DNA of 40,921 bases, taken from UHGV virus genome UHGV-0093931; one strand, given 5' to 3'. Below the pieces are notes generated by a model. That model was not told the origin of the DNA. It saw only the letters and a list, made by a program, of their open reading frames with translations, and did no database searches. This DNA is from a virus. Positions 18,019-40,921 of this stretch are shown here, piece by piece. Numbering within the stretch: the first letter of the stretch is position 1; each line of letters opens with the position of its first letter. A program made the translations under genes and the position numbers.

Positions 18019-19476
18019 ATGCAGGTCACTATCGATGGTGTTCCATACGCGCCTGTCTGCAATTCGGTGTCACGCATAGGAATAGCAATCACAACGCATA
18101 ATCGCCCTGACGTATTGAAGCGGACACTGGCGCAGCATCATCAATTTTTACCGTCCGGCGCGCTCGTGGTTGTCATAGATGATGGTTCAAAACCTGCCGC
18201 AGTCGTTCCCGACGGCGTGCAGCTGCTTCGCAATGAAACATCCCTCGGCATTGTGGCCTCGAAAAACCGAAGCCTCGAAGCGCTGGTGGACGCCGGATGT
18301 GAGCATCTCTTCCTGTGGGATGATGACGCATGGCCGGTTGCCGATAACTGGCACCTGCCTTACATCGAATCACCTGAGTCACACCTGGCTTACCAGTTTC
18401 TCGATCTGGCTGGTCCACGAAAGATAAACGATATGACCGTCCTGCACCAGGATGATAAGCATATCGCTTACACCGGGCAGCGCGGTGTGATGCTGTACTA
18501 CCACCGCAGCGCCATTGAGAAGGTTGGCGGATTCGATCCGGTATACGGTCGAGGCATGTATGAGCATCCTGATTTGGCGCTTCGGATTTATAACGCTGGC
18601 TTAACGTCCTGGGCGTTTGCTGATGTGGTTGGCTCTGAAAAGCTGATTCACTCAATGGATGAATACGAAGAGGGCGCGCGCAGCATACCGAGGCCTGAAC
18701 GTGAAGCGCTCTATAAAAAGAACGCTGTAATTTACGGGCAGCGCCGGGATTCAGGATATACAGGCTATGCCGAATATCGATCTCAGCGCGACGTGGTAAT
18801 CACAACGTTGCTTACCAGCCAGCCAGACCCGCAGCGCGGTACGAAAATGGCGGCCGTATCAGACATGCTGACCAGGTGGGCTGCCTCGCTTCGGAATTGT
18901 GGCCGTATTGCGCTGGTGGATGAGCTGCAGACGGCATCGGCAGACGTTGAGTTGTATCGCGTCCCTGACGTGAAGATGAATGTCTACTTCCGGCGCTGGC
19001 TGCATATCTGGCAGCACCTGCGCGATCACCCTGAATACCGGTTCGTCTGGTGTACCGATGGTACCGATGTCGAAATGCTCCGCGCACCGTGGGAAGAAAT
19101 GCAGCCCGGGAATGTTTACGTCGGTTCTGAACCGAAGATCTACGCCGACACCTGGGCGAAACAGAATCATCCTGAGCGTATCTATCAGGAATTCATTGAA
19201 GCGCACCGCGGCGATGTGATGCTTAATGCTGGTCTTCTGGGAGGCACCCGCGCTGATGTGATGGCGTTCGCTCATGGCATCATCCGTCTTTACTACCGGA
19301 TCGAGAGTTATCGTTTCTGGAAGAAAGAACAGGCTGGCGCAGCGGTGGGTGACATGCTGGCGTTCGGTATCGTTGCGCAGTCATTCGCTGACAGGTTGGT
19401 CACCGGCCCTCTGGTACATACCGTTTTCAAAACTGATGGTATCGGTAAGGAGGCAGCATGGTGGAAACACAAGTGA
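18019..19476 (+). CDS. two-domain glycosyltransferase (GT2-like GT-A domain plus a second nucleotide-sugar-transferase-like domain)
   Basis: 485 aa; N-terminus ...IGIAITTHNRPDVLKRTL...VVVIDDGS...LFLWDDDAW... is a GT-A/GT2 signature with DxD; C-terminal half has ...VWCTDGTDVEM...NAGLLGG... resembling another GT-A-type domain; no predicted TM segments. Confidence 0.7.
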   Translation: MQVTIDGVPYAPVCNSVSRIGIAITTHNRPDVLKRTLAQHHQFLPSGALVVVIDDGSKPAAVVPDGVQLLRNETSLGIVASKNRSLEALVDAGCEHLFLWDDDAWPVADNWHLPYIESPESHLAYQFLDLAGPRKINDMTVLHQDDKHIAYTGQRGVMLYYHRSAIEKVGGFDPVYGRGMYEHPDLALRIYNAGLTSWAFADVVGSEKLIHSMDEYEEGARSIPRPEREALYKKNAVIYGQRRDSGYTGYAEYRSQRDVVITTLLTSQPDPQRGTKMAAVSDMLTRWAASLRNCGRIALVDELQTASADVELYRVPDVKMNVYFRRWLHIWQHLRDHPEYRFVWCTDGTDVEMLRAPWEEMQPGNVYVGSEPKIYADTWAKQNHPERIYQEFIEAHRGDVMLNAGLLGGTRADVMAFAHGIIRLYYRIESYRFWKKEQAGAAVGDMLAFGIVAQSFADRLVTGPLVHTVFKTDGIGKEAAWWKHK

Positions 19477-32699: not shown

Positions 32700-33451
32700 G
32701 TCTGAACGCTGATTATCAAAAGCTCGAGCCCGGCGATGAAGTCAGGCTTTACGAGGTCGACGGAACGGCCTTTGGTACAGGGGAGGTGCTGCGATTTCAC
32801 AGCTACAGCCTGGCACATACTGAAGCGGCAATTACTGCCGCCGGAGGTGATGAAAATAAACTGCCTGCAAAATCGATCTGGTGGCAGGGCGAGGAGTATA
32901 AAGCCTGGCCCTGCCAGATTGAGGGGATCGAGGCATCTACCAATGGAAGCGGCGCGCAGCCAAAATTATCGGTAGCTAACCTTGATAGCTCCATAACGGC
33001 ACTTTGTCTGGCTTATGACGATATGCTGCAGGCGAAGGTGACCATTCATGACACGCTGGGCAAATATCTTGATGCAAATAACTTTGTCGATGGCAACCCC
33101 ACAGCAGATCCGACTCAGGAAAAGCTGAAGGTTTTCTACATCGATGCAAAGAGTGGTGAAACCAACGAAGTGGTTGAGTTCACACTCTCCAGCCCGATGG
33201 ACCTGCAGGGATTAATGATCCCTACCCGGCAACTTCATTCGCTATGCACCTGGTGCATTCGTAATAAATACCGCACCGGCGACGGCTGTGACTATGCCGG
33301 CACCCGCTATTTCGACAAAAACAACAACCCGGTAAGCGATCCGTCGTTGGATGAATGCAACGGCACGCTGACGGCCTGCAAACTCCGATTCGGCGAAAAT
33401 AACGAGCTTTCGCATGGTGGTTTCCCCGGAACATCTTTGATCAGGAGCTGA
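32696..33451 (+). CDS. minor tail protein L-like
   Basis: 251 aa; C-terminal Cys cluster (...CTWC...C...C...C...) as in lambda gpL. Confidence 0.8.
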   Translation: MSLNADYQKLEPGDEVRLYEVDGTAFGTGEVLRFHSYSLAHTEAAITAAGGDENKLPAKSIWWQGEEYKAWPCQIEGIEASTNGSGAQPKLSVANLDSSITALCLAYDDMLQAKVTIHDTLGKYLDANNFVDGNPTADPTQEKLKVFYIDAKSGETNEVVEFTLSSPMDLQGLMIPTRQLHSLCTWCIRNKYRTGDGCDYAGTRYFDKNNNPVSDPSLDECNGTLTACKLRFGENNELSHGGFPGTSLIRS

Positions 33452-33452
33452 T

Positions 33453-34163
33453 ATGCGTCAGAAAACCATCGATGCGATTATGGCGCATGCTGCAGCAGAA
33501 TATCCTCGTGAGTGTTGCGGCGTGGTGGCGCAGAAAAGCCGTGTTGAACGTTATTTTCCGTGCCGGAATCTTGCCGCGGCGCCGGAGGACAATTTTGTCC
33601 TTTGCCCCGAGGACTATGCAACTGCTGAGGACTGGGGAACGGTGATCGCCATCGCTCACAGTCACCCTGATGCCACGACGCAACCGAGCGAACTGGATAA
33701 AGCGCAATGCGATGCGACGCTTTTACCCTGGCATATCGTGAGCTGGCCGGAGGGGGATTTACGTACCATCCAGCCGCGTGGAGAACTGCCGCTGCTGGAG
33801 CGTCCGTTTGTGCTTGGTCACTTCGACTGCTGGGGGCTGGTAATGAGCTATTTCCGGCAAACTCATGGTATCGAGCTCCATGATTACCGGGTGGATTATC
33901 CCTGGTGGGAAAACGACTATCCGGACAACTTCTATCAGGATTGCTGGTATGAGTGCGGATTCCGTGAATTCGACGGGCCACCGAAACCAGGGGATATGGT
34001 GATCATGCAGGTCCAGGCTGATAAGTGGAACCACGCGGGAATCCTGCTGGAGGGTAATATGTTGCTACACCACCTGTACGGTCATCTGAGTCAGCGCGTG
34101 CCGTATGGCGGTTACTGGCAAGAAAGAACGATGAAGATTCTACGTTATAAATCTCTGTGCTAA
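33453..34163 (+). CDS. tail assembly protein K-like (JAB/MPN plus NlpC/P60 domains)
   Basis: 236 aa; ...AHSHP... JAMM-like motif and C-terminal Cys/His peptidase-like region. Confidence 0.8.
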   Translation: MRQKTIDAIMAHAAAEYPRECCGVVAQKSRVERYFPCRNLAAAPEDNFVLCPEDYATAEDWGTVIAIAHSHPDATTQPSELDKAQCDATLLPWHIVSWPEGDLRTIQPRGELPLLERPFVLGHFDCWGLVMSYFRQTHGIELHDYRVDYPWWENDYPDNFYQDCWYECGFREFDGPPKPGDMVIMQVQADKWNHAGILLEGNMLLHHLYGHLSQRVPYGGYWQERTMKILRYKSLC

Positions 34164-34191
34164 CCTTTGCTCAAAACAAAGGAGCGAAACC

Positions 34192-34542
34192 ATGAAATTT
34201 GTATTAAGTCTATTGTTATTATCGACATTATTTAATTCATACGCAGGAACTGTAGACGATTATCTTGAACGTCATTCTGAAATAAAATCAAATTCTGTTG
34301 CTGAAACTTATGTGAGCCATTACGCCTTTATGATTGCGATGATGGAAGCACAACAGAAGCATAATAGATCTGATAATGAGTTTATCACTGGATTACTTTC
34401 AAATAATGGTGATGTATATGCAAGATTAGCAGTTAGAAAACTTGCCAATGATTGTTTAACGCAAAGGGATATTGGTCAGTCCGGAGAGTTAAATAATAAA
34501 GAATGTAATATTGTGATTAGAGCAAATAAATCACAACAATAG
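34192..34542 (+). CDS. secreted small protein (moron in the tail module)
   Basis: 116 aa; AT-rich codon usage unlike its neighbours; N-terminal signal peptide MKFVLSLLLLSTLFNSYAGT; AGGAG RBS. Confidence 0.6.
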   Translation: MKFVLSLLLLSTLFNSYAGTVDDYLERHSEIKSNSVAETYVSHYAFMIAMMEAQQKHNRSDNEFITGLLSNNGDVYARLAVRKLANDCLTQRDIGQSGELNNKECNIVIRANKSQQ

Positions 34543-34546
34543 CCAA

Positions 34547-35155
34547 TTGAAAGTCGAGGGTACGATGCAAGAGGTAATGACGCGAATTGAACTAGGTGGA
34601 GAGCCGGGTAAGATCTTTGGAAAGATACACCATCGCCTTATCAATAAAGTATCAGAAGCTGGAACGGCCCTCGCTAAAACTATCCCCGGCTTTGAAAGTT
34701 ATATGATTAGCAGTAAAAGCCGTGGGCTAACATTTGCCATCTTCAAAGGTAAAAAGAATATTGGAGTTGACGACCTTGGCTTTCCCGTTACAGGTGAAGT
34801 AATCAGAATTGTGCCTGTAATCATTGGGGGCAAAAAAGCCGGGGTGCTGCAAACAGTTTTAGGTGCCGTGTTGGTTGCCGCTGGTGCCGTGCTTAGCTTC
34901 ACCCCATGGGCTGCAGCCTCACCATTTTTATATAAATTTGGTGCTGCAATGATGCTAGGCGGAGTTGTACAGATGCTTTCTCCACAGCCATCTGGCATAG
35001 CCAGCAAACAAAGTGCAGATAACCGTGCATCCTACGCATTCGGTGGAGTTACGAACACCGCAGCTCAGGGTTACCCGGTCCCGCTTCTTTATGGTCGTCG
35101 GCGAATCGGCGGAGCGATTATTTCTGCCGGAATTTATGTCGAAGATCAGCAGTAG
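34547..35155 (+). CDS. tail assembly protein I-like
   Basis: 202-aa ORF (start may be an internal Met); hydrophobic C-terminal segment; lambda I position between K and J. Confidence 0.7.
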   Translation: MKVEGTMQEVMTRIELGGEPGKIFGKIHHRLINKVSEAGTALAKTIPGFESYMISSKSRGLTFAIFKGKKNIGVDDLGFPVTGEVIRIVPVIIGGKKAGVLQTVLGAVLVAAGAVLSFTPWAAASPFLYKFGAAMMLGGVVQMLSPQPSGIASKQSADNRASYAFGGVTNTAAQGYPVPLLYGRRRIGGAIISAGIYVEDQQ

Positions 35156-35173
35156 ATAACACACCTTTTTCAG

Positions 35174-35197
35174 GCCACCTTCGGGTGGCTTTTTTTA
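35174..35197 (+). terminator. intrinsic terminator-like hairpin between I and J
   Basis: GCCACC-ttcg-GGTGGC followed by TTTTTTTAT. Confidence 0.6.
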
Positions 35198-35207
35198 TGG
35201 GCGCAAT

Positions 35208-38200
35208 ATGGCTAAAGAAAAAGTGTTAAAGGGCCGCAAGGGCGGCAGCTCCAGTTCCAGAACCCCTACCGAACAGCCTGATGATCTGCAATCTGTAGCG
35301 AAAGCCAAAATCCTCGTTGCGCTTGGCGAAGGTGAATTTGCAGGACAATTAACCGGCAAAGATATCTACCTGGACGGAACGGCGCTGGAGAACGCCGATG
35401 GCTCCCAAAACTTCAGCGGCGTGACGTGGGAGTTTCGCGCGGGAACGCAGGCGCAAAAGTATATTCAGGGTATTCCCGGTACCGAAAACGAAATCAGCGT
35501 GGGAACTGAGGTATCAAGCGCCACAGCCTGGACGCGAACGTTTACCAATACGCAGCTTTCGGCAGTTCGCCTGCGTCTGAAATGGCCATCGCTTTTCAAA
35601 CAGGAGGACGACGGTGATCTGGTCGGTTACTCGGTCAATTATGCGATTGACCTGCAGACGGGCGGCGGCGCATGGCAGACGGTACTCAATACCAGCGTGA
35701 CCGGAAAAACAACGTCTGGTTACGAGCGCAGCCACCGTATTGATTTACCGCAGGTTGGAAGCACCTGGACAATCCGCCTGCGTAAGATAACCTCTGACGC
35801 CAACAGCGCGAAGATCGGCGACACGATGACGCTGCAGAGCTTCACTGAGGTGATTGACGCCAAGTTACGCTATCCAAACACAGCGTTACTCTACATCGAA
35901 TTCGATTCCAGCCAGTTTAACGGTTCTATCCCGCAGATCTCCTGCGAGCCCCGCGGTCGTGTTATCCGCGTTCCAGATACCTACGACCCTGAAACCCGTA
36001 TTTATAGCGGTACATGGACCGGTGCGTTTAAGTGGGCATGGACGGATAACCCTGCGTGGATTTTTTACGATCTGGTTGTTTCTGACCGGTTCGGCCTCGG
36101 TCACCGTTTGACTGCCGCTAACATCGATAAATGGACGCTTTATCAGGTTGCCCAGTATTGTGATCAGATGGTGCTAGACGGCAAAGGGGGCAACGGTACC
36201 GAACCACGTTATACCTGCAACGTGTACATTCAGGACCGAAACGACGCTTACACAGTCCTGCGTGATTTTGCTGCTATCTTCCGTGGCATGACCTACTGGG
36301 GCGGTGATCAGATTGTTGCGCTTGCCGATATGCCGAGAGATGTGGATTACGCTTACACCCGCGCTAACGTTATCGACGGACGCTTTACCTATTCCAGCAG
36401 CACGACAAAAACGCGGTATACCACGGCGCTGGTTTCCTGGTCTGATCCGGGTAACGCCTATGCAGATGCGATGGAGCCGGTGTTTGAGCAGCCTCTGGTG
36501 GCCCGGTACGGATTTAATCAGCTGGAAATGACAGCCATCGGCTGTACCAGGCAATCAGAAGCGAACCGAAAGGGGCGCTGGGGTATTCTCACCAACAACA
36601 AGGATCGCGTTGTTTCGTTTGATGTTGGCCTGGACGGAAACATTCCGCAGCCGGGATACATCATCGCCGTGTCAGACGAGCTTCTGTCCGGCAAAGTTAT
36701 GGGCGGCCGCATCAGTGCTGTTAACGGTCGCGTGATTAAACTTGACCGCGTAGCTGATGCAGCAGCAGGCGATCGCCTTATTCTCAATCTTCCCTCCGGT
36801 GCGTCACAGAGCAGGACTATTCAGGCGGTTAACGGGGAATCAGTCACAGTCACCACGGCATACAGTGAGACACCACAGGCCGAAGCTGTATGGGTGGTTG
36901 AGTCAGATGAACTCTACGCCCAGCAGTATCGTGTTGTCAGTGTCTCCGATAACAATGATGGTACCTTCTCGATTACTGGCGCATGGCACGATCCGGATAA
37001 ATATGCCCGTATTGATACCGGAGCCATCATTGACCAGCGGCCGGTGAGTGTGATCCCGCCGGGTAACCAGTCGCCGCCTGCGAACATCGTGATCAGCTCC
37101 TTTTCAGTGGTGCAGCAGAATATTAGCGTCGAAACGATGCGCGTGAGCTGGGACCAGGCGCAGAACGCTATCGCCTATGAAGCGCAATGGCGCCGCAACG
37201 ACGGGAACTGGGTTAACGTGCCGCGCAGCTCCACCACGTCATTTGATGTATCGGGTATTTATGCCGGGCGCTACCTCGTGCGTGTGCGCGCTATTAATGC
37301 CTCTGAAATTTCCTCTGGCTGGGGCTACTCCGAAGAGAAAACGCTGACGGGCAAGGTGGGAAATCCGCCGAAACCTGTCGGCTTTGCGACAACGCCGATC
37401 AACTGGGGGATTCGCCTGAACTGGGGATTCCCGGCTAATACCGGGGACACGCTGAAAACGGAAATTCAGTACACCGCGAACAGTGATTTCTCAAATCCCC
37501 TTTTGTTGTCGGATGTGCCTTATCCGTCTGCCGAATACACCCAACTGGGTTTGAAGGCTGGTCAGGAGTTCTGGTACCGCGCGCAGCTGGTAGACAGAAC
37601 GGGTAATGAATCAGGGTGGACCGACTGGGTTCGTGGTGAATCTAATGCGAATGCTGACGACTACCTGGGCGATATTGCTGATGACTTCCTGACATCTGCC
37701 GACGGTGACCGCCTGACCGGCGACATTGATACCAATCTTGAAGCCGCATTGCAGAACGCGCTGGCCAACCATGCAACCGTGGAACACCAGTGGGCGCAGT
37801 ACGGCGAGGTACGCGCGGATATTCTGGTGGTTAAAACGACCATTGCGCAGGTCGATAAGGCCATGGCTGAAATGTCGACGCAGGTGCAGGCGCAGTTCAA
37901 TGATGTGACTGCTGCGCTGGAAGATAAGCTCACCGCCGTGGTTGATGCGACCGGGGCATCTGCAATTTACACCCTTAAAACCGGAGTTCGAATAAACGGT
38001 GTGATGTATAACGCCGGGATGTCGATCGCGGTGCTGGCCGAAGCGGGTAAGCCAGTGGTCACTCGTGTCGGGTTTAACGCAAACCAGTTCGTCCTGATGA
38101 GTGGCAGCGGTGATACGCAATATTCACCCTTTGCTGTTGTTAATGGTCAGGTGTTTATCAGCGATGCGTTTATTCAGAATGGAAGTATAACAAGCGCCAA

Positions 38201-38384
38201 AATTGCTAACGCCGCAATCAACAATGCGAAAATCTCAGGTTCTATCTGGTCAGAAGGTTACAAAGTTGCAAATCAGGGGGGGTGGTGTCTTTCTAAAGCC
38301 GACAACAATCTTTCCTTTACGGGGCCGGAAGGTCGTGTGCTTGTGCAGATTGGTAAACTAACAGGAGTGGCTCCCAATGTCTGA
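35208..38384 (+). CDS. central tail fibre / host specificity protein J-like
   Basis: 1058-aa ORF in the lambda J position after K and I. Confidence 0.85.
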   Translation: MAKEKVLKGRKGGSSSSRTPTEQPDDLQSVAKAKILVALGEGEFAGQLTGKDIYLDGTALENADGSQNFSGVTWEFRAGTQAQKYIQGIPGTENEISVGTEVSSATAWTRTFTNTQLSAVRLRLKWPSLFKQEDDGDLVGYSVNYAIDLQTGGGAWQTVLNTSVTGKTTSGYERSHRIDLPQVGSTWTIRLRKITSDANSAKIGDTMTLQSFTEVIDAKLRYPNTALLYIEFDSSQFNGSIPQISCEPRGRVIRVPDTYDPETRIYSGTWTGAFKWAWTDNPAWIFYDLVVSDRFGLGHRLTAANIDKWTLYQVAQYCDQMVLDGKGGNGTEPRYTCNVYIQDRNDAYTVLRDFAAIFRGMTYWGGDQIVALADMPRDVDYAYTRANVIDGRFTYSSSTTKTRYTTALVSWSDPGNAYADAMEPVFEQPLVARYGFNQLEMTAIGCTRQSEANRKGRWGILTNNKDRVVSFDVGLDGNIPQPGYIIAVSDELLSGKVMGGRISAVNGRVIKLDRVADAAAGDRLILNLPSGASQSRTIQAVNGESVTVTTAYSETPQAEAVWVVESDELYAQQYRVVSVSDNNDGTFSITGAWHDPDKYARIDTGAIIDQRPVSVIPPGNQSPPANIVISSFSVVQQNISVETMRVSWDQAQNAIAYEAQWRRNDGNWVNVPRSSTTSFDVSGIYAGRYLVRVRAINASEISSGWGYSEEKTLTGKVGNPPKPVGFATTPINWGIRLNWGFPANTGDTLKTEIQYTANSDFSNPLLLSDVPYPSAEYTQLGLKAGQEFWYRAQLVDRTGNESGWTDWVRGESNANADDYLGDIADDFLTSADGDRLTGDIDTNLEAALQNALANHATVEHQWAQYGEVRADILVVKTTIAQVDKAMAEMSTQVQAQFNDVTAALEDKLTAVVDATGASAIYTLKTGVRINGVMYNAGMSIAVLAEAGKPVVTRVGFNANQFVLMSGSGDTQYSPFAVVNGQVFISDAFIQNGSITSAKIANAAINNAKISGSIWSEGYKVANQGGWCLSKADNNLSFTGPEGRVLVQIGKLTGVAPNV

Positions 38385-38694
38385 TTTTGGATTTGCCTCA
38401 TGGGACACTAACGGCGTCCCGAATAACTATGGCATTAAACCTGTAACCGTGGTGGGTATCATCGATCTTGCTTTAGGTCAGAAAACGGGAAGCTACCAGT
38501 TCAGTCTGGAGCCTGGTTTAAAGGTTGGTTTTGCGGTTGGTACTCTGGAGGATAAAGGGACAATAAGTTATACAGACAAAAGAAGCATTATTGCATCTGG
38601 AAACACCATAACAATACAGCCTTCAGGTAGTGATGGGATTAATGATTACCCGGCAGTCAAAGTGCAGTTAATCGTTTTTGCGGAGACTGCGTAG
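38377..38694 (+). CDS. hypothetical tail-associated protein
   Basis: 105-aa ORF whose ATG overlaps the J stop. Confidence 0.55.
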   Translation: MSDFGFASWDTNGVPNNYGIKPVTVVGIIDLALGQKTGSYQFSLEPGLKVGFAVGTLEDKGTISYTDKRSIIASGNTITIQPSGSDGINDYPAVKVQLIVFAETA

Positions 38695-39369
38695 ATGGCT
38701 AAATATGGCGCATTGATTTCATTACCTAACGGGAACCCTTTTATCACGCCTGATTCCACACCAATGACGCTTTACCGGAAAGTCACTGTAAACTCAACTT
38801 TTGGAGGGGATTTTAACAGTGCTTCGGCGTCCGTGACTGTCGACGGTCAGAAGGGAGGGATTGCATTTGCACGAACCAGCGCCCCGGCGAAGATATCAGC
38901 TTCAAAAAGTGGCAACACGTTCAGTGTTGATGCGTCTAATTACAGAGGTTCGGCTTTCGTGCTGGAGGCGTATTTTTTTGCTATATATCCGCTCACCCTT
39001 CCTGCCTGGGGTGTGGCTATATGGGATGCCGAAGGGACACTGGTACTTACGAATGAGTCCCGGGTATTAAGCGACCTTACAACTATAGGCTCACCCGGCG
39101 CTGCAACGGGTGGGCTTAACATCGATACATACATGGCAGGCAAATGGGCCGTAAATCCGATGGGGCTGGGGTCTGTTCTTCTGCATGCTGGTTCAGCACC
39201 TGGCGGACAACCAATAATCCAGCCTGTGGATGTGGGAACGGGGTGCTTCAATGAAGGTGTAGGAACAAGAATAAAAGGACTTTCATCAACAACAGCAAGT
39301 GGTTCTTCAGTCGGAACGACGAATAGCGGGATTGTAATAACGGCGATAAACACAGCCGCATATGATTAA
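38695..39369 (+). CDS. hypothetical tail-associated protein
   Basis: 224-aa ORF contiguous with the previous gene; Gly/Ser/Thr-rich. Confidence 0.55.
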   Translation: MAKYGALISLPNGNPFITPDSTPMTLYRKVTVNSTFGGDFNSASASVTVDGQKGGIAFARTSAPAKISASKSGNTFSVDASNYRGSAFVLEAYFFAIYPLTLPAWGVAIWDAEGTLVLTNESRVLSDLTTIGSPGAATGGLNIDTYMAGKWAVNPMGLGSVLLHAGSAPGGQPIIQPVDVGTGCFNEGVGTRIKGLSSTTASGSSVGTTNSGIVITAINTAAYD

Positions 39370-39477
39370 ACCGATCGATTTAAACGATCAATTTAAGAAT
39401 ATTGATCTATTAAAACTATTTTTATTATTCAATGCCATTGGTTATTTTTTGTTTAAATAATTAACTCTGGTGTCGAA

Positions 39478-39714
39478 ATGAAAAATATAATTATTCCAGT
39501 TATTGCCTGTCTGGTGCTTTCAGCATGTTCAGGACCTGTTCTGGAGAAACAGAAACCTGTTTGTCAGGCTGAGTTAGTGGTTGGTGGGCTGCCCCAGTCA
39601 GTGCAGATTTACGGTGTACGAAAAGTTGCAAATCAGACTGAGTACAGAGCCGGTTATCCATTTAACTGGCGATGGGTGAATAAAAATAACTTCACCCGTT
39701 CGAATTGCTCTTAA
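39478..39714 (+). CDS. small lipoprotein, Cor-like superinfection-exclusion candidate
   Basis: 78 aa; signal peptide with lipobox (...LVLSAC-S); AT-rich upstream region; own intrinsic terminator; located just after J, where cor sits in phi80/N15/HK022-type phages. Confidence 0.5.
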   Translation: MKNIIIPVIACLVLSACSGPVLEKQKPVCQAELVVGGLPQSVQIYGVRKVANQTEYRAGYPFNWRWVNKNNFTRSNCS

Positions 39715-39730
39715 TGCCTTACCAAAAAAC

Positions 39731-39755
39731 AACCCGCTCCGGCGGGTTTTTTATT
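39731..39755 (+). terminator. intrinsic terminator
   Basis: AACCCGC-tccg-GCGGGTT followed by TTTTTATT. Confidence 0.75.
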
Positions 39756-39776
39756 ATCTGAATTCAGGAGATATCC

Positions 39777-40871
39777 ATGTCAGCAGGAACCTTAACCCTG
39801 ACGAATAACTCTGCTGCGGTCGCTGGCAGCGGGACCGCGTTTACCACCGAGGTGGCAGCCGGAGATTTTATTGTTGTTACTGTCGGTGGCATTCCCTACA
39901 CGCTCCCGGTTAAATCTGTGGAAAGTGGTACAGCGTTGACGCTGGTCAGTAACTTTACCGGGCCAACACAATCTGGCGCGGCCTGGTCAGCTGTTCCTCG
40001 TGTGGCGCTGAATATGGTCACCGCGGCGCTGGTGGCGCAAAGTGCTGAAGCGCTGCGAGGCCTGAATTACGACAAACAGAACTGGCAGCAGGTTTACAGT
40101 GGTGCTGGCAGCATCACCGTGAAGTTACCGGATGGCACTACATTCACCGGGCCGTCATGGAAATATCTTTCTGACAACCTCGCGGATAAAGTAGACAGCA
40201 AAGATCCCCAACTAGGTACTGTGAATGGGAAAACAGGCGGAACCATTGCCACCCCAGTTTATAGCGTTGGAGCTAGTGGGGTAGTAACTCAGGACTCAAG
40301 TTATGGTGAGTGGTCATTTCTTTATCCATCCACTTTAAAAAAGATGGCCTACGGATTTTGTGAGAATTTTGGTGATCTGGTTTTTGTAACTACCGTTGCA
40401 ACAAATACCGGGACAGAAAAATATTTTGCTATGCGTCAGAACGGTAATTTCAATACACAAGGAAATATTACCTGCGTCTCGCTGAACCAGACTTCAGATG
40501 CCGATAAAAAAAACGACATAAAACCCATTGAAGACGCACTTGGTAAAGTGATGGCTCTAAACGGTGTAACCTTCAACTGGAAGGACAGCGGCCTGCCATC
40601 TTCCGGTGTGATTGCCCAGGAGCTTATAAAAGTCCTGCCGGAGGCTGTCGGATCAGTCTTTGAAGATCATGATCAGTATGAGTCTGTTGAAGAAATCAAT
40701 GCGGGCGGCGAGACGACAATCACCCGTCATCTTGTTAAAAAACGAGATGACAGCAAGCGTAGCTATACGGTGGAATATTCTGGCGTCGTTGCACTCTGTC
40801 TTCAGGCAATAAAAGAATTGAATGAAAAAGTAGACAGTTTGCTGGAACAGTCATCTGCCGTTAAAAATTGA
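39777..40871 (+). CDS. side tail fibre protein with C-terminal intramolecular-chaperone (peptidase S74-like) domain
   Basis: 364 aa; Ala/Gly/Thr-rich N-terminus; C-terminus (...IEDALGKVMALNGVTFNWKD...GVIAQELIKVLPEAV...ELNEKVDSLLEQ) resembles the autoproteolytic chaperone domain of tail fibres/spikes. Confidence 0.7.
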   Translation: MSAGTLTLTNNSAAVAGSGTAFTTEVAAGDFIVVTVGGIPYTLPVKSVESGTALTLVSNFTGPTQSGAAWSAVPRVALNMVTAALVAQSAEALRGLNYDKQNWQQVYSGAGSITVKLPDGTTFTGPSWKYLSDNLADKVDSKDPQLGTVNGKTGGTIATPVYSVGASGVVTQDSSYGEWSFLYPSTLKKMAYGFCENFGDLVFVTTVATNTGTEKYFAMRQNGNFNTQGNITCVSLNQTSDADKKNDIKPIEDALGKVMALNGVTFNWKDSGLPSSGVIAQELIKVLPEAVGSVFEDHDQYESVEEINAGGETTITRHLVKKRDDSKRSYTVEYSGVVALCLQAIKELNEKVDSLLEQSSAVKN

Positions 40872-40921
40872 TAGTTGCCGCAACCACACCGTATGCAAGA
40901 GCATGATTGCGGCCGACTGGC

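What the first reader, a model, noticed from the sequence alone, without database searches (positions are those of the whole stretch)
34170..35200. AT-rich secreted-protein moron inside the tail module, with a terminator before J
Between K and I sits a 116-aa ORF with a clear signal peptide and markedly AT-rich composition; lambda has no gene here. A terminator-like hairpin follows I (35174-35197). Candidate functions are a periplasmic lysogenic-conversion factor, superinfection exclusion, or virulence-associated protein.
Basis: seen in the sequence. Interest (0 to 1): 0.55.

Follow-up and report, generated by a model that had tools for sequence, protein, structure and literature searches.

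The report
Secreted accessory gene between tail genes
A prophage carries an extra, foreign-looking gene wedged between two tail-tip assembly genes; it encodes a small protein exported to the periplasm, of an uncharacterised family found only in prophage tail-tip modules, and it is an ordinary kind of phage "add-on" gene whose function (probably blocking entry of other phages) is still untested.

Summary
ORF 34192-34542 (116 aa) lies between K and I. It is the most AT-rich 351 bp of the window (31.6% GC, GC3 21%). It has a cleavable-type signal peptide, and a strong terminator (35172-35196) precedes J. The gene is real: dN/dS is 0.07-0.15, and about 40 protein clusters exist in Enterobacterales prophages (phrog_13007). 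All 35 aligned members keep a signal peptide and exactly two mature cysteines. AlphaFold gives a confident four-helix protein with no sequence or fold relative in any library available here.

The K/I junction is the classic HK97/HK022 moron hot spot. Relatives carry a YebO-like membrane protein or a lipoprotein there. Distant homologues occupy the hub/spike slot of SEN34-like myovirus prophages.

Unlike a canonical moron, this copy has no detectable promoter or terminator of its own, so it must be co-transcribed with the late tail operon. The terminator before J is an ancestral HK97-group feature.

The best-supported reading is a horizontally acquired accessory periplasmic protein. It probably acts as an entry-exclusion or envelope-protection factor, but that function is inferred, not shown.

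It is a new member of a known kind, of modest interest.

The parts
33453..34163 (+). Tail-tip assembly gene K (236 aa, JAB/MPN + NlpC/P60). It forms the left conserved flank of the cargo slot.
   Evidence: Pfam PF14464 2e-20 and PF00877 1e-21. phrog_30 8.7e-132. 94-100% identical in related loci.
34164..34191 (+). K-to-ORF spacer of 28 nt. It holds a small hairpin (CCTTTG 34164-34169 / CAAAGG 34177-34182) that overlaps the Shine-Dalgarno AAGGAG (34179-34184). There is no room for a promoter.
   Evidence: Sequence. RNAfold -7.0 kcal/mol. The spacer and hairpin are conserved in 10 other loci. Homology with mEp390 and CharmingMan, which carry a different cargo, runs up to 34182.
34192..34542 (+). 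Cargo gene: 116-aa precursor of a small exported all-helical protein with two conserved cysteines (C88, C105). Family phrog_13007.
34192..34245 (+). Signal-peptide coding part (residues 1-18), with predicted cleavage SYA|GT.
   Evidence: n/h/c layout with a small residue at -1 in 35 of 35 members. The signal sequence is variable while the mature N-terminus G/K-T-[VIL]-x-D-[FY] is conserved.
34565..35155 (+). Tail assembly gene I (196 aa; true start ATG 34565, not the TTG at 34547). Its 5' half probably travels with the cargo gene.
   Evidence: phrog_32 1e-70. Homology with other phages resumes at 34565-34570. The N-terminal half is 91-100% identical in loci with an ORF at least 78% identical, but about 68% identical in phages with other cargo; GC3 is 0.41.
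35172..35196 (+). Intrinsic terminator (8-bp GC-rich stem, UUCG loop, T7) 11 nt before the J start codon. It is the first terminator downstream of the cargo gene.
   Evidence: It is homologous to the annotated putative terminator before HK97 J and is present in most HK97-like loci.
35208..38384 (+). Central tail fibre / tip gene J. It forms the right conserved flank.
   Evidence: The N-terminal 500 aa are 83-100% identical in related loci.

Best explanation
SHOWN
- Window 34192-34542 is a genuine gene for a small Sec-type exported, all-helical protein with two conserved cysteines (a probable periplasmic disulfide).
- It belongs to an uncharacterised family, phrog_13007, seen here only in Enterobacterales prophages.
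- It is a horizontally acquired cargo cassette of about 34183-34564. The 5' half of gene I probably travels with it.
- It sits at the K/I junction, the classic moron slot of HK97-like phages.
- It has a strong ribosome-binding site but no detectable promoter or terminator of its own. It is therefore transcribed with the late tail operon. Any RNA polymerase that is not antiterminated stops at the conserved terminator 35172-35196, before J.

INFERRED
- An exported protein cannot be built into a tail assembled in the cytoplasm, and close relatives make tails without it. It is therefore an accessory factor that acts in the periplasm.
- The most likely role is protection of the infected or lysogenic cell against incoming phages, at the post-adsorption periplasmic step of DNA entry. 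In outcome this is superinfection exclusion, like HK97 gp15, Cor or T4 Spackle.
- The target is probably a host envelope or periplasmic component, or a feature common to tail tips, rather than one specific tail enzyme.
For: Real gene:
- dN/dS is 0.07-0.15 against three homologues.
- phrog_13007 matches at E 1.8e-32.
- 39 homologous clusters were found.
- The exact protein is recorded in Citrobacter freundii and its cluster in Enterobacter. A 53%-identical Klebsiella cluster is seen on 791 contigs.

Export:
- 35 of 35 members have a signal-peptide layout and exactly two mature cysteines.

Foreign origin:
- The gene has the lowest GC in the window.
- Family genes have GC 0.31-0.45 against flanks of 0.47-0.55 in 10 other loci.

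Cassette and hot spot:
- Homology with mEp390, CharmingMan, HK97 and HK106 stops at 34141-34182 and resumes at 34565-34570.
- The same slot holds a YebO-like membrane protein (HK106, HK022), a lipoprotein (mEp390, CharmingMan) or KilA-N plus a lipoprotein.
- HK97 annotates moron products between I and J.

Position is constant:
- The order L-K-ORF-I-J holds in 23 of 23 loci tested, plus 5 more by gene calls.
- Distant homologues (22-30% identical) lie between baseplate hub and spike in 17 of 17 myovirus prophage loci.
- That second slot also holds other exported proteins.

Not tied to receptor specificity:
- J lengths range from 1058 to 3515 aa among carriers.

Not needed for tails:
- Lambda, HK97, mEp390 and others lack it.

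Not part of lysis:
- The lysis cassette is complete elsewhere in the window.
Against: - No promoter was detected, so expression in the lysogen, which exclusion normally requires, is unproven. Late-only expression is unusual timing for an exclusion protein.
- The two phage types that carry the family have unrelated tail-associated murein hydrolases: K with NlpC/P60, against a tape measure with an SLT domain. This argues against a simple Spackle-like lysin inhibitor.
- The constant position could reflect only linkage and a recombination hot spot, not a functional tie to the tail tip.
Confidence: 0.4

Rival explanations
1. It is a host-fitness (lysogenic-conversion) factor unrelated to phage entry. 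A periplasmic protein might protect or modify the envelope, for example through stress tolerance, resistance to bacteriocins or interbacterial toxins, or host colonisation.
For: It has foreign composition, is exported, and sits in a slot that carries diverse envelope cargo. It is widespread in clinical Klebsiella, Enterobacter and Citrobacter prophages. It is absent from 50,697 sequenced phage records.
Against: No promoter for prophage expression was detected in this copy. There is no similarity to any known immunity, inhibitor or virulence family or fold. The family was seen only inside tail-tip modules, never next to toxin or effector genes.
Confidence: 0.25
2. It is a lytic-cycle helper for the phage itself. 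Made late with the tail proteins and exported, it might condition the envelope of the producing cell. Possible effects are stopping progeny from injecting into dying cells or debris, tuning murein or lysis, or countering an envelope-located host defence.
For: The gene is embedded in the late operon: tightly spaced, strong SD, no promoter or terminator of its own. It is stably co-inherited with tail-tip genes in two tail architectures across wide divergence, with hub identity 48-100%.
Against: A complete holin / SAR-endolysin / spanin set exists elsewhere in the window. Close relatives propagate without the gene. Most other family members are followed by their own terminator, as morons are.
Confidence: 0.2
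3. It is a tail structural or assembly component, and its hydrophobic N-terminus is not a signal peptide.
For: It lies between the assembly genes K and I, and in myovirus prophages between hub and spike.
Against: The signal sequence is variable, has a conserved -3/-1 cleavage motif, and is followed by a conserved mature N-terminus. Two conserved cysteines fit an oxidising compartment. The gene is absent from lambda, HK97, mEp390, SEN34 and others, which build the same tails. Its composition is foreign.
Confidence: 0.03
4. It is a chance ORF in an AT-rich spacer and does not encode a functional protein.
For: AT-rich DNA has few stop-free constraints against short ORFs.
Against: dN/dS is 0.07-0.15 with dS up to above 1. 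Full-length homologues reach down to 22% identity with conserved motifs. AlphaFold gives a confident, reproducible model: pLDDT 85-87 in 5 of 5 models.
Confidence: 0.01

Closest known systems
HK022/HK106 gp20 (YebO-like) element in the K/I slot. HK97 has an annotated terminator there, and its gp22/gp23 between I and J are annotated as moron products. These are the phages in which morons were first described.
   Same: Same insertion point between K and I. It is an extra gene absent from lambda, it encodes a small envelope-targeted protein, and the flanks are conserved.
   Different: The protein is unrelated: a 74-aa single-pass YebO-family membrane protein. That element has its own terminator, and in HK97 a promoter-like sequence. 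The window gene has neither.
mEp390 gp17 / CharmingMan lipoprotein (K/I slot cargo)
   Same: Same slot, the same left junction up to window 34182, and an exported envelope protein.
   Different: It is a lipoprotein with an L-x-A-G-C lipobox and no sequence similarity. It is followed by a copy of the GCCACC...GGTGGC terminator before I.
HK97 gp15 (moron-encoded superinfection exclusion protein; PMC3594210)
   Same: It is an accessory gene inside the tail operon of the same phage group. It is a small envelope protein, and it blocks DNA entry after adsorption. This is the proposed working analogy.
   Different: gp15 is an inner-membrane protein located between the tail chaperone and tape-measure genes. 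It has its own promoter and terminator and proven prophage expression. No homology was detected.
T4 Spackle (periplasmic inhibitor of the tail lysozyme gp5). This comparison rests on my own knowledge of the literature.
   Same: It is a small, signal-peptide-bearing, helical periplasmic phage protein, and a conceivable mode of action next to the NlpC/P60 gene K.
Cor (outer-membrane lipoprotein exclusion factor of HK022/phi80/N15)
   Same: It is a prophage accessory envelope protein in the tail region. A Cor homologue is present in this same window at 39478-39714.
   Different: Cor is a lipoprotein with its own AT-rich upstream region and terminator. The sequence is unrelated.

Membership tests
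Moron (as summarised in Cumby, Davidson and Maxwell 2012, PMC3594210) | An extra gene inserted between two genes that are adjacent in related phages | tested here: met
   K and I overlap in lambda. Homology with mEp390, CharmingMan, HK97 and HK106 breaks at 34141-34182 and resumes at 34565-34570.
Moron (as summarised in Cumby, Davidson and Maxwell 2012, PMC3594210) | GC content that differs from the surrounding genes | tested here: met
   GC 0.316 and GC3 0.214, against K 0.543/0.595 and J 0.539/0.588. It is the lowest 351-bp stretch in the window.
Moron (as summarised in Cumby, Davidson and Maxwell 2012, PMC3594210) | Its own promoter | tested here: not met
   The spacer after K is only 28 nt. 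No + strand site scores 9/12 or better upstream. A relaxed 8/12 scan of 33700-34230 finds only a poor site with a 19-nt spacer at 33970. A weak or non-canonical promoter cannot be excluded by sequence alone.
Moron (as summarised in Cumby, Davidson and Maxwell 2012, PMC3594210) | Its own terminator | tested here: not met
   22 nt separate the stop codon from the I start and contain no hairpin. The first terminator is after I, at 35172-35196. The 53%-identical homologue in L020 and the subfamily-B genes do have one.
Moron (as summarised in Cumby, Davidson and Maxwell 2012, PMC3594210) | Expressed from the repressed prophage | not testable with these tools
   This needs RNA-seq or 5'-RACE of the lysogen.
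phrog_13007 (PHROGs, unknown function) | Full-length HMM match | tested here: met
   E 1.8e-32, residues 3-113 against profile positions 6-115 of 116. A subfamily-B member also matches at 1e-19.
Sec-exported periplasmic protein (type I signal peptide) | Basic n-region, hydrophobic h-region of 10-15 residues, small residues at -3 and -1, and no lipobox cysteine | tested here: met
   MK / FVLSLLLLSTLF / NSYA|G. The best 10-residue Kyte-Doolittle score is 2.47. The same layout occurs in 35 of 35 members. No dedicated predictor was available, and export itself is not shown.
T4 Spackle-like tail-lysozyme inhibitor | Sequence or fold similarity to Spackle | tested here: not met
Periplasmic immunity proteins of interbacterial amidase effectors (Tai/Rap type) | A family HMM or fold match, and adjacency to an effector gene | tested here: not met
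   No Pfam or NCBIfam family matches at E up to 1. There is no fold match. Every locus examined is a prophage tail module.
Known anti-phage defence systems (PADLOC-DB v2) | HMM match | tested here: not met
   0 families at E up to 1 for four family members.
Lipoprotein exclusion factors (Cor, Llp) | Lipobox with cysteine at +1 | tested here: not met
   The cleavage region is NSYA|GT with no cysteine. The window's true Cor homologue is a different gene, 39478-39714.

The most novel reading that the evidence does not exclude
The family may be a new class of periplasmic phage-against-phage (or phage-against-host-defence) protein with a fold not seen in solved structures. In this reading it is hard-wired into the tail-tip module of two unrelated tail architectures (siphovirus K/I, myovirus hub/spike). 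In this lineage it would be expressed with the late operon, acting on a shared periplasmic step of DNA delivery rather than on receptors.
Probability: 0.25. Interest if true: 0.55.

Novelty: new member of a known kind. Interest (0 to 1): 0.35.

Why it matters
Accessory genes in prophage tail operons have repeatedly turned out to be exclusion or host-conversion factors; HK97 gp15, Cor, Lom and Bor are examples. This family is common in prophages of clinically important Klebsiella, Enterobacter and Citrobacter, is annotated only as hypothetical, and has no structural relative. If it blocks phage entry from the periplasm, it would add a mechanism relevant to phage-therapy host range. It would also give a handle on the poorly understood periplasmic stage of DNA injection. 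If it does not, it is one more mosaic cargo gene at a known hot spot.

Tried and rejected
Negative searches
- Pfam, NCBIfam and PADLOC scans of the protein and three relatives found nothing.
- A PDB sequence-profile search gave 0 hits.
- tblastn of three family members against 50,697 phage records found no match. megablast of a subfamily-B gene against complete E. coli genomes also found none.
- Rfam found nothing in 33000-40921 except a sub-threshold isrK-like hit at the cor terminator.
- Literature searches found no paper on this family. The Tai and GiPD474 papers concern unrelated cytoplasmic proteins.

Ideas considered and dropped
- I tested whether the protein is a Tai4/Rap-like immunity protein or a Spackle-like inhibitor of the neighbouring NlpC/P60 protein K. 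The fold and sequence tests were negative, and subfamily-B phages carry a different hydrolase class.
- I tested whether it is paralogous to the other exported proteins in the myovirus slot. Only the signal peptides align.

Failed call
- The search for related loci with the full family alignment failed for lack of a conserved stretch.

Error corrected
- I first placed the I start at 34566. As a result, the I identities and the I GC3 value were computed out of frame and are void. One search replaces them.

Full report
1. WHAT IS THERE

The window is a complete HK97-like (Hendrixvirinae-type) prophage. It runs from an integrase-side end, through lysis and head genes, to a tail module in the order H-M-L-K-[ORF]-I-J.

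The ORF in question spans 34192-34542 on the + strand and encodes 116 aa. It starts 28 nt after the TAA of K and has AAGGAG 7 nt upstream of its ATG. It ends 22 nt before the ATG of I at 34565. The TTG at 34547 listed by the ORF finder is not the real start of I, because homology with other phages begins at 34565-34570.

K carries JAB and NlpC/P60 domains and matches phrog_30. I matches phrog_32.

The ORF has 31.6% GC and 21% GC3. K has 54%/60% and J has 54%/59%. The ORF is the single lowest-GC 351-bp stretch in all 40.9 kb.

An intrinsic terminator sits at 35172-35196, 11 nt before the J start codon. It has the stem AGGCCACC/GGTGGCTT, a UUCG loop and seven T residues, and folds at -13.6 kcal/mol. 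In lambda, K and I overlap, so no gene lies there.

2. IT IS A REAL, CONSERVED, EXPORTED PROTEIN

Conservation and selection:
- The protein matches phrog_13007 (function unknown) over its full length at E 1.8e-32.
- A word-indexed search found 5 clusters.
- An exhaustive profile search of 1.8 billion representatives found 15 hits, about 13 of them genuine.
- A second profile search found 39 clusters.
- Every member that carries a source name is called a hypothetical protein and comes from Enterobacterales. None has a Pfam domain.
- The exact sequence is on record as a hypothetical protein of Citrobacter freundii, and its 90% cluster contains Enterobacter and E. coli entries. A 53%-identical Klebsiella cluster is seen on 791 contigs.
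- dN/dS against three homologues is 0.07-0.15, with dS up to above 1.

Export signals:
- In an alignment of 35 members, the first 17-21 residues are variable. They always show a basic n-region, a hydrophobic core and a small residue at -1.
- They are followed by a conserved mature N-terminus, G/K-T-[VIL]-x-D-[FY].
- Every mature chain has exactly two cysteines.
- This is the signature of a cleaved Sec signal peptide and a periplasmic disulfide. Export itself is inferred, not demonstrated.

Structure:
- With the 35-sequence alignment, AlphaFold2 gives five concordant models (pLDDT 85-87, pTM 0.77). They show a four-helix protein with helices at 21-33, 35-57, 62-94 and 102-113.

3. CONTEXT: A KNOWN HOT SPOT

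Against phages with other cargo (mEp390, CharmingMan, HK97, HK106), nucleotide homology ends at window 34141-34182 and resumes at 34565-34570. The variable cassette is thus essentially the ORF with its ribosome-binding site.

What other phages carry in the same slot:
- HK106 and HK022 carry a 74-aa YebO-family membrane protein plus a terminator.
- HK97 has no annotated CDS there. Its copy of that reading frame is interrupted by a stop codon, and the record annotates a putative terminator.
- mEp390 and CharmingMan carry a 136-aa lipoprotein.
- One E. coli prophage carries a KilA-N protein plus a lipoprotein.

The HK97 record annotates "moron product" and "reverse moron product" between I and J. 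Morons were first described from the HK97/HK022 comparison, as recounted in PMC3594210.

The family gene always occupies this slot in the siphovirus context. The order L-K-ORF-I-J holds in 23 of 23 loci checked by tblastn and in 5 further loci by gene calls. Carriers have J proteins of 1058 to 3515 aa, so the gene is not tied to one receptor-binding domain.

4. A SECOND CONTEXT

Distant members (22-30% identity) lie in prophages with a contractile tail, related to Salmonella phage SEN34. These have E217/PhiTE-type sheath and tube and a Pam3-type baseplate. In all 17 of 17 loci the gene sits between the baseplate hub (phrog_196) and the central spike.

The hosts are Citrobacter, E. coli, Raoultella, Serratia and Pantoea. 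There too the gene is AT-rich relative to its flanks (0.38-0.45 against 0.47-0.55).

That slot is also variable:
- It holds other exported proteins: phrog_3443 with a signal peptide, a 154-aa protein with a signal peptide, and SEN34_21 with an N-terminal membrane anchor. These are unrelated to the family beyond the signal peptide.
- Sequenced phages of this group carry different cargo there.
- No family member occurs in 50,697 deposited phage genomes.

5. TRANSCRIPTION SIGNALS

No sigma-70-like site precedes the ORF, and the spacer after K is only 28 nt. No hairpin follows the ORF in this lineage.

By contrast, the 53%-identical homologue in locus L020 has its own terminator. In the four subfamily-B loci scanned, a terminator follows the gene or the slot just before the spike gene.

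The window copy is therefore a promoter-less, terminator-less insert in the late operon. The first terminator downstream is the one before J. That terminator is not specific to this gene. The same GCCACC-N4-GGTGGC-T-run element precedes J in most HK97-like loci examined, and a paralogous copy precedes I in phages with YebO or lipoprotein cargo.

From established knowledge of lambdoid late transcription, Q-modified polymerase reads through such terminators. The element would therefore only stop unmodified polymerase, for example polymerase coming from a moron promoter, from entering J.

6. MECHANISM

Shown:
- An exported accessory protein of foreign origin, in a recombination hot spot, co-transcribed with the tail genes.

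Inferred:
- It acts in the periplasm.
- It cannot be a virion part, and it is dispensable for tail formation in relatives.
- The lysis cassette (holin, SAR-type endolysin, Rz/Rz1) is complete elsewhere in the window.

The pattern that both tail-tip slots collect envelope-directed proteins, and the precedents of gp15 and Cor, make entry exclusion or envelope protection the most likely role. I give this reading about 0.4.

A direct Spackle-like inhibition of K's NlpC/P60 domain was attractive but is weakened. The fold does not match, and subfamily-B phages carry an SLT-type tape measure instead of a K-like peptidase.

The rivals are:
- a host-fitness factor unrelated to phages (0.25);
- a late periplasmic helper of the phage's own cycle (0.2);
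- a structural role (0.03);
- a spurious ORF (0.01).

7. COMPARISON AND NOVELTY

As a kind of element it is familiar: cargo in the HK97-group K/I slot. It fails two defining features of a canonical moron, its own promoter and its own terminator. I therefore call it moron-like cargo, not a moron in the strict sense.

The protein family is uncharacterised and has no recognisable fold relative. Its confinement to tail-tip modules of two tail types is a mildly interesting regularity. The verdict is a new member of a known kind, with interest 0.35.

8. CORRECTION

I first took 34566 as the I start. The I identities and the I GC3 value were consequently out of frame and are void. One search gives the correct values:
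- I has GC 0.48 and GC3 0.41.
- Its N-terminal half is 91-100% identical wherever the ORF is at least 78% identical.
- It is only about 68% identical in phages with other cargo, although K and J remain 96-98% identical.
- The mosaic unit therefore probably includes the 5' half of I.

Noticed in passing
window 39300-39750: This looks like a textbook moron. A 78-aa Cor-family lipoprotein gene (39478-39714, phrog_1119 E 1.3e-25, lipobox LSAC) is preceded by a very AT-rich stretch (GC about 0.31) with a promoter-like site at 39432-39461. It is followed by a bidirectional terminator at 39731-39748. There is also a sub-threshold isrK-like Rfam hit at 39675-39752 (19 bits, E 0.95).
   Followed up: partly
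window 39731-39748 and L019 6551-6568: The terminator hairpin AACCCGCTCCGGCGGGTT after cor is identical to the one that closes the hub/spike cargo slot of an unrelated Raoultella myovirus prophage. Near-identical versions occur in L024 and L017. Cargo-slot terminators appear to be shared across phage types.
   Followed up: no
L010 4803 and 6110; L003 3673 and 4318; L011 7124 and 7769; L012 2910 and 3571: In HK97, HK106, mEp390 and CharmingMan, gene I is flanked on both sides by near-identical copies of the GCCACC-N4-GGTGGC-T-run terminator, each followed by ATGGG or ATTGG. These may be recombination linkers for cassette exchange. The window keeps only the copy before J.
   Followed up: partly
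window 34164-34188: A small hairpin overlaps the Shine-Dalgarno sequence of the cargo gene (CCTTTG-N7-CAAAGG, about -7 kcal/mol). It is conserved, with stem-preserving variants, in 10 other loci and in phages with lipoprotein cargo. It may attenuate translation or stabilise the RNA.
   Followed up: partly
window 34565-34860: The 5' half of gene I has lower GC (0.44; the whole gene has GC3 0.41). Its allele co-varies with the cargo type, while K and J stay 96-98% identical. This suggests a recombination joint inside I.
   Followed up: partly
window 38377-39369: Two genes directly after J match phrog_557 (annotated 'outer membrane protein', 105 aa) and phrog_425 (annotated 'membrane associated protein', category moron, 224 aa). 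GC is 0.44-0.50. This is further probable envelope cargo downstream of the tail tip.
   Followed up: no
L017 5612-5959; L013 5423-5887; L057 4434-4850: The hub/spike slot of SEN34-like myovirus prophages holds other exported proteins of unknown function: phrog_3443 (115 aa, signal peptide, two cysteines), a 154-aa protein with a signal peptide, and SEN34_21 with an N-terminal membrane anchor.
   Followed up: partly
L001 4163-5265: In E. coli 21AR0133 the homologous prophage is a remnant. Gene I is truncated by an IS1 insertion right after the family gene, and host genes (iraM, ymgK, ycgX, bluR) follow.
   Followed up: no
L010 4562-4660: In HK97 the reading frame that corresponds to the YebO-like gp20 of HK106 and HK022 contains an in-frame stop codon. 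This fits the absence of a CDS there in the HK97 record.
   Followed up: no
window 18019-19476: A 485-aa ORF lies between the lysis cassette and the packaging and head genes. That is an unusual place for a gene of this size. It was not analysed.
   Followed up: no
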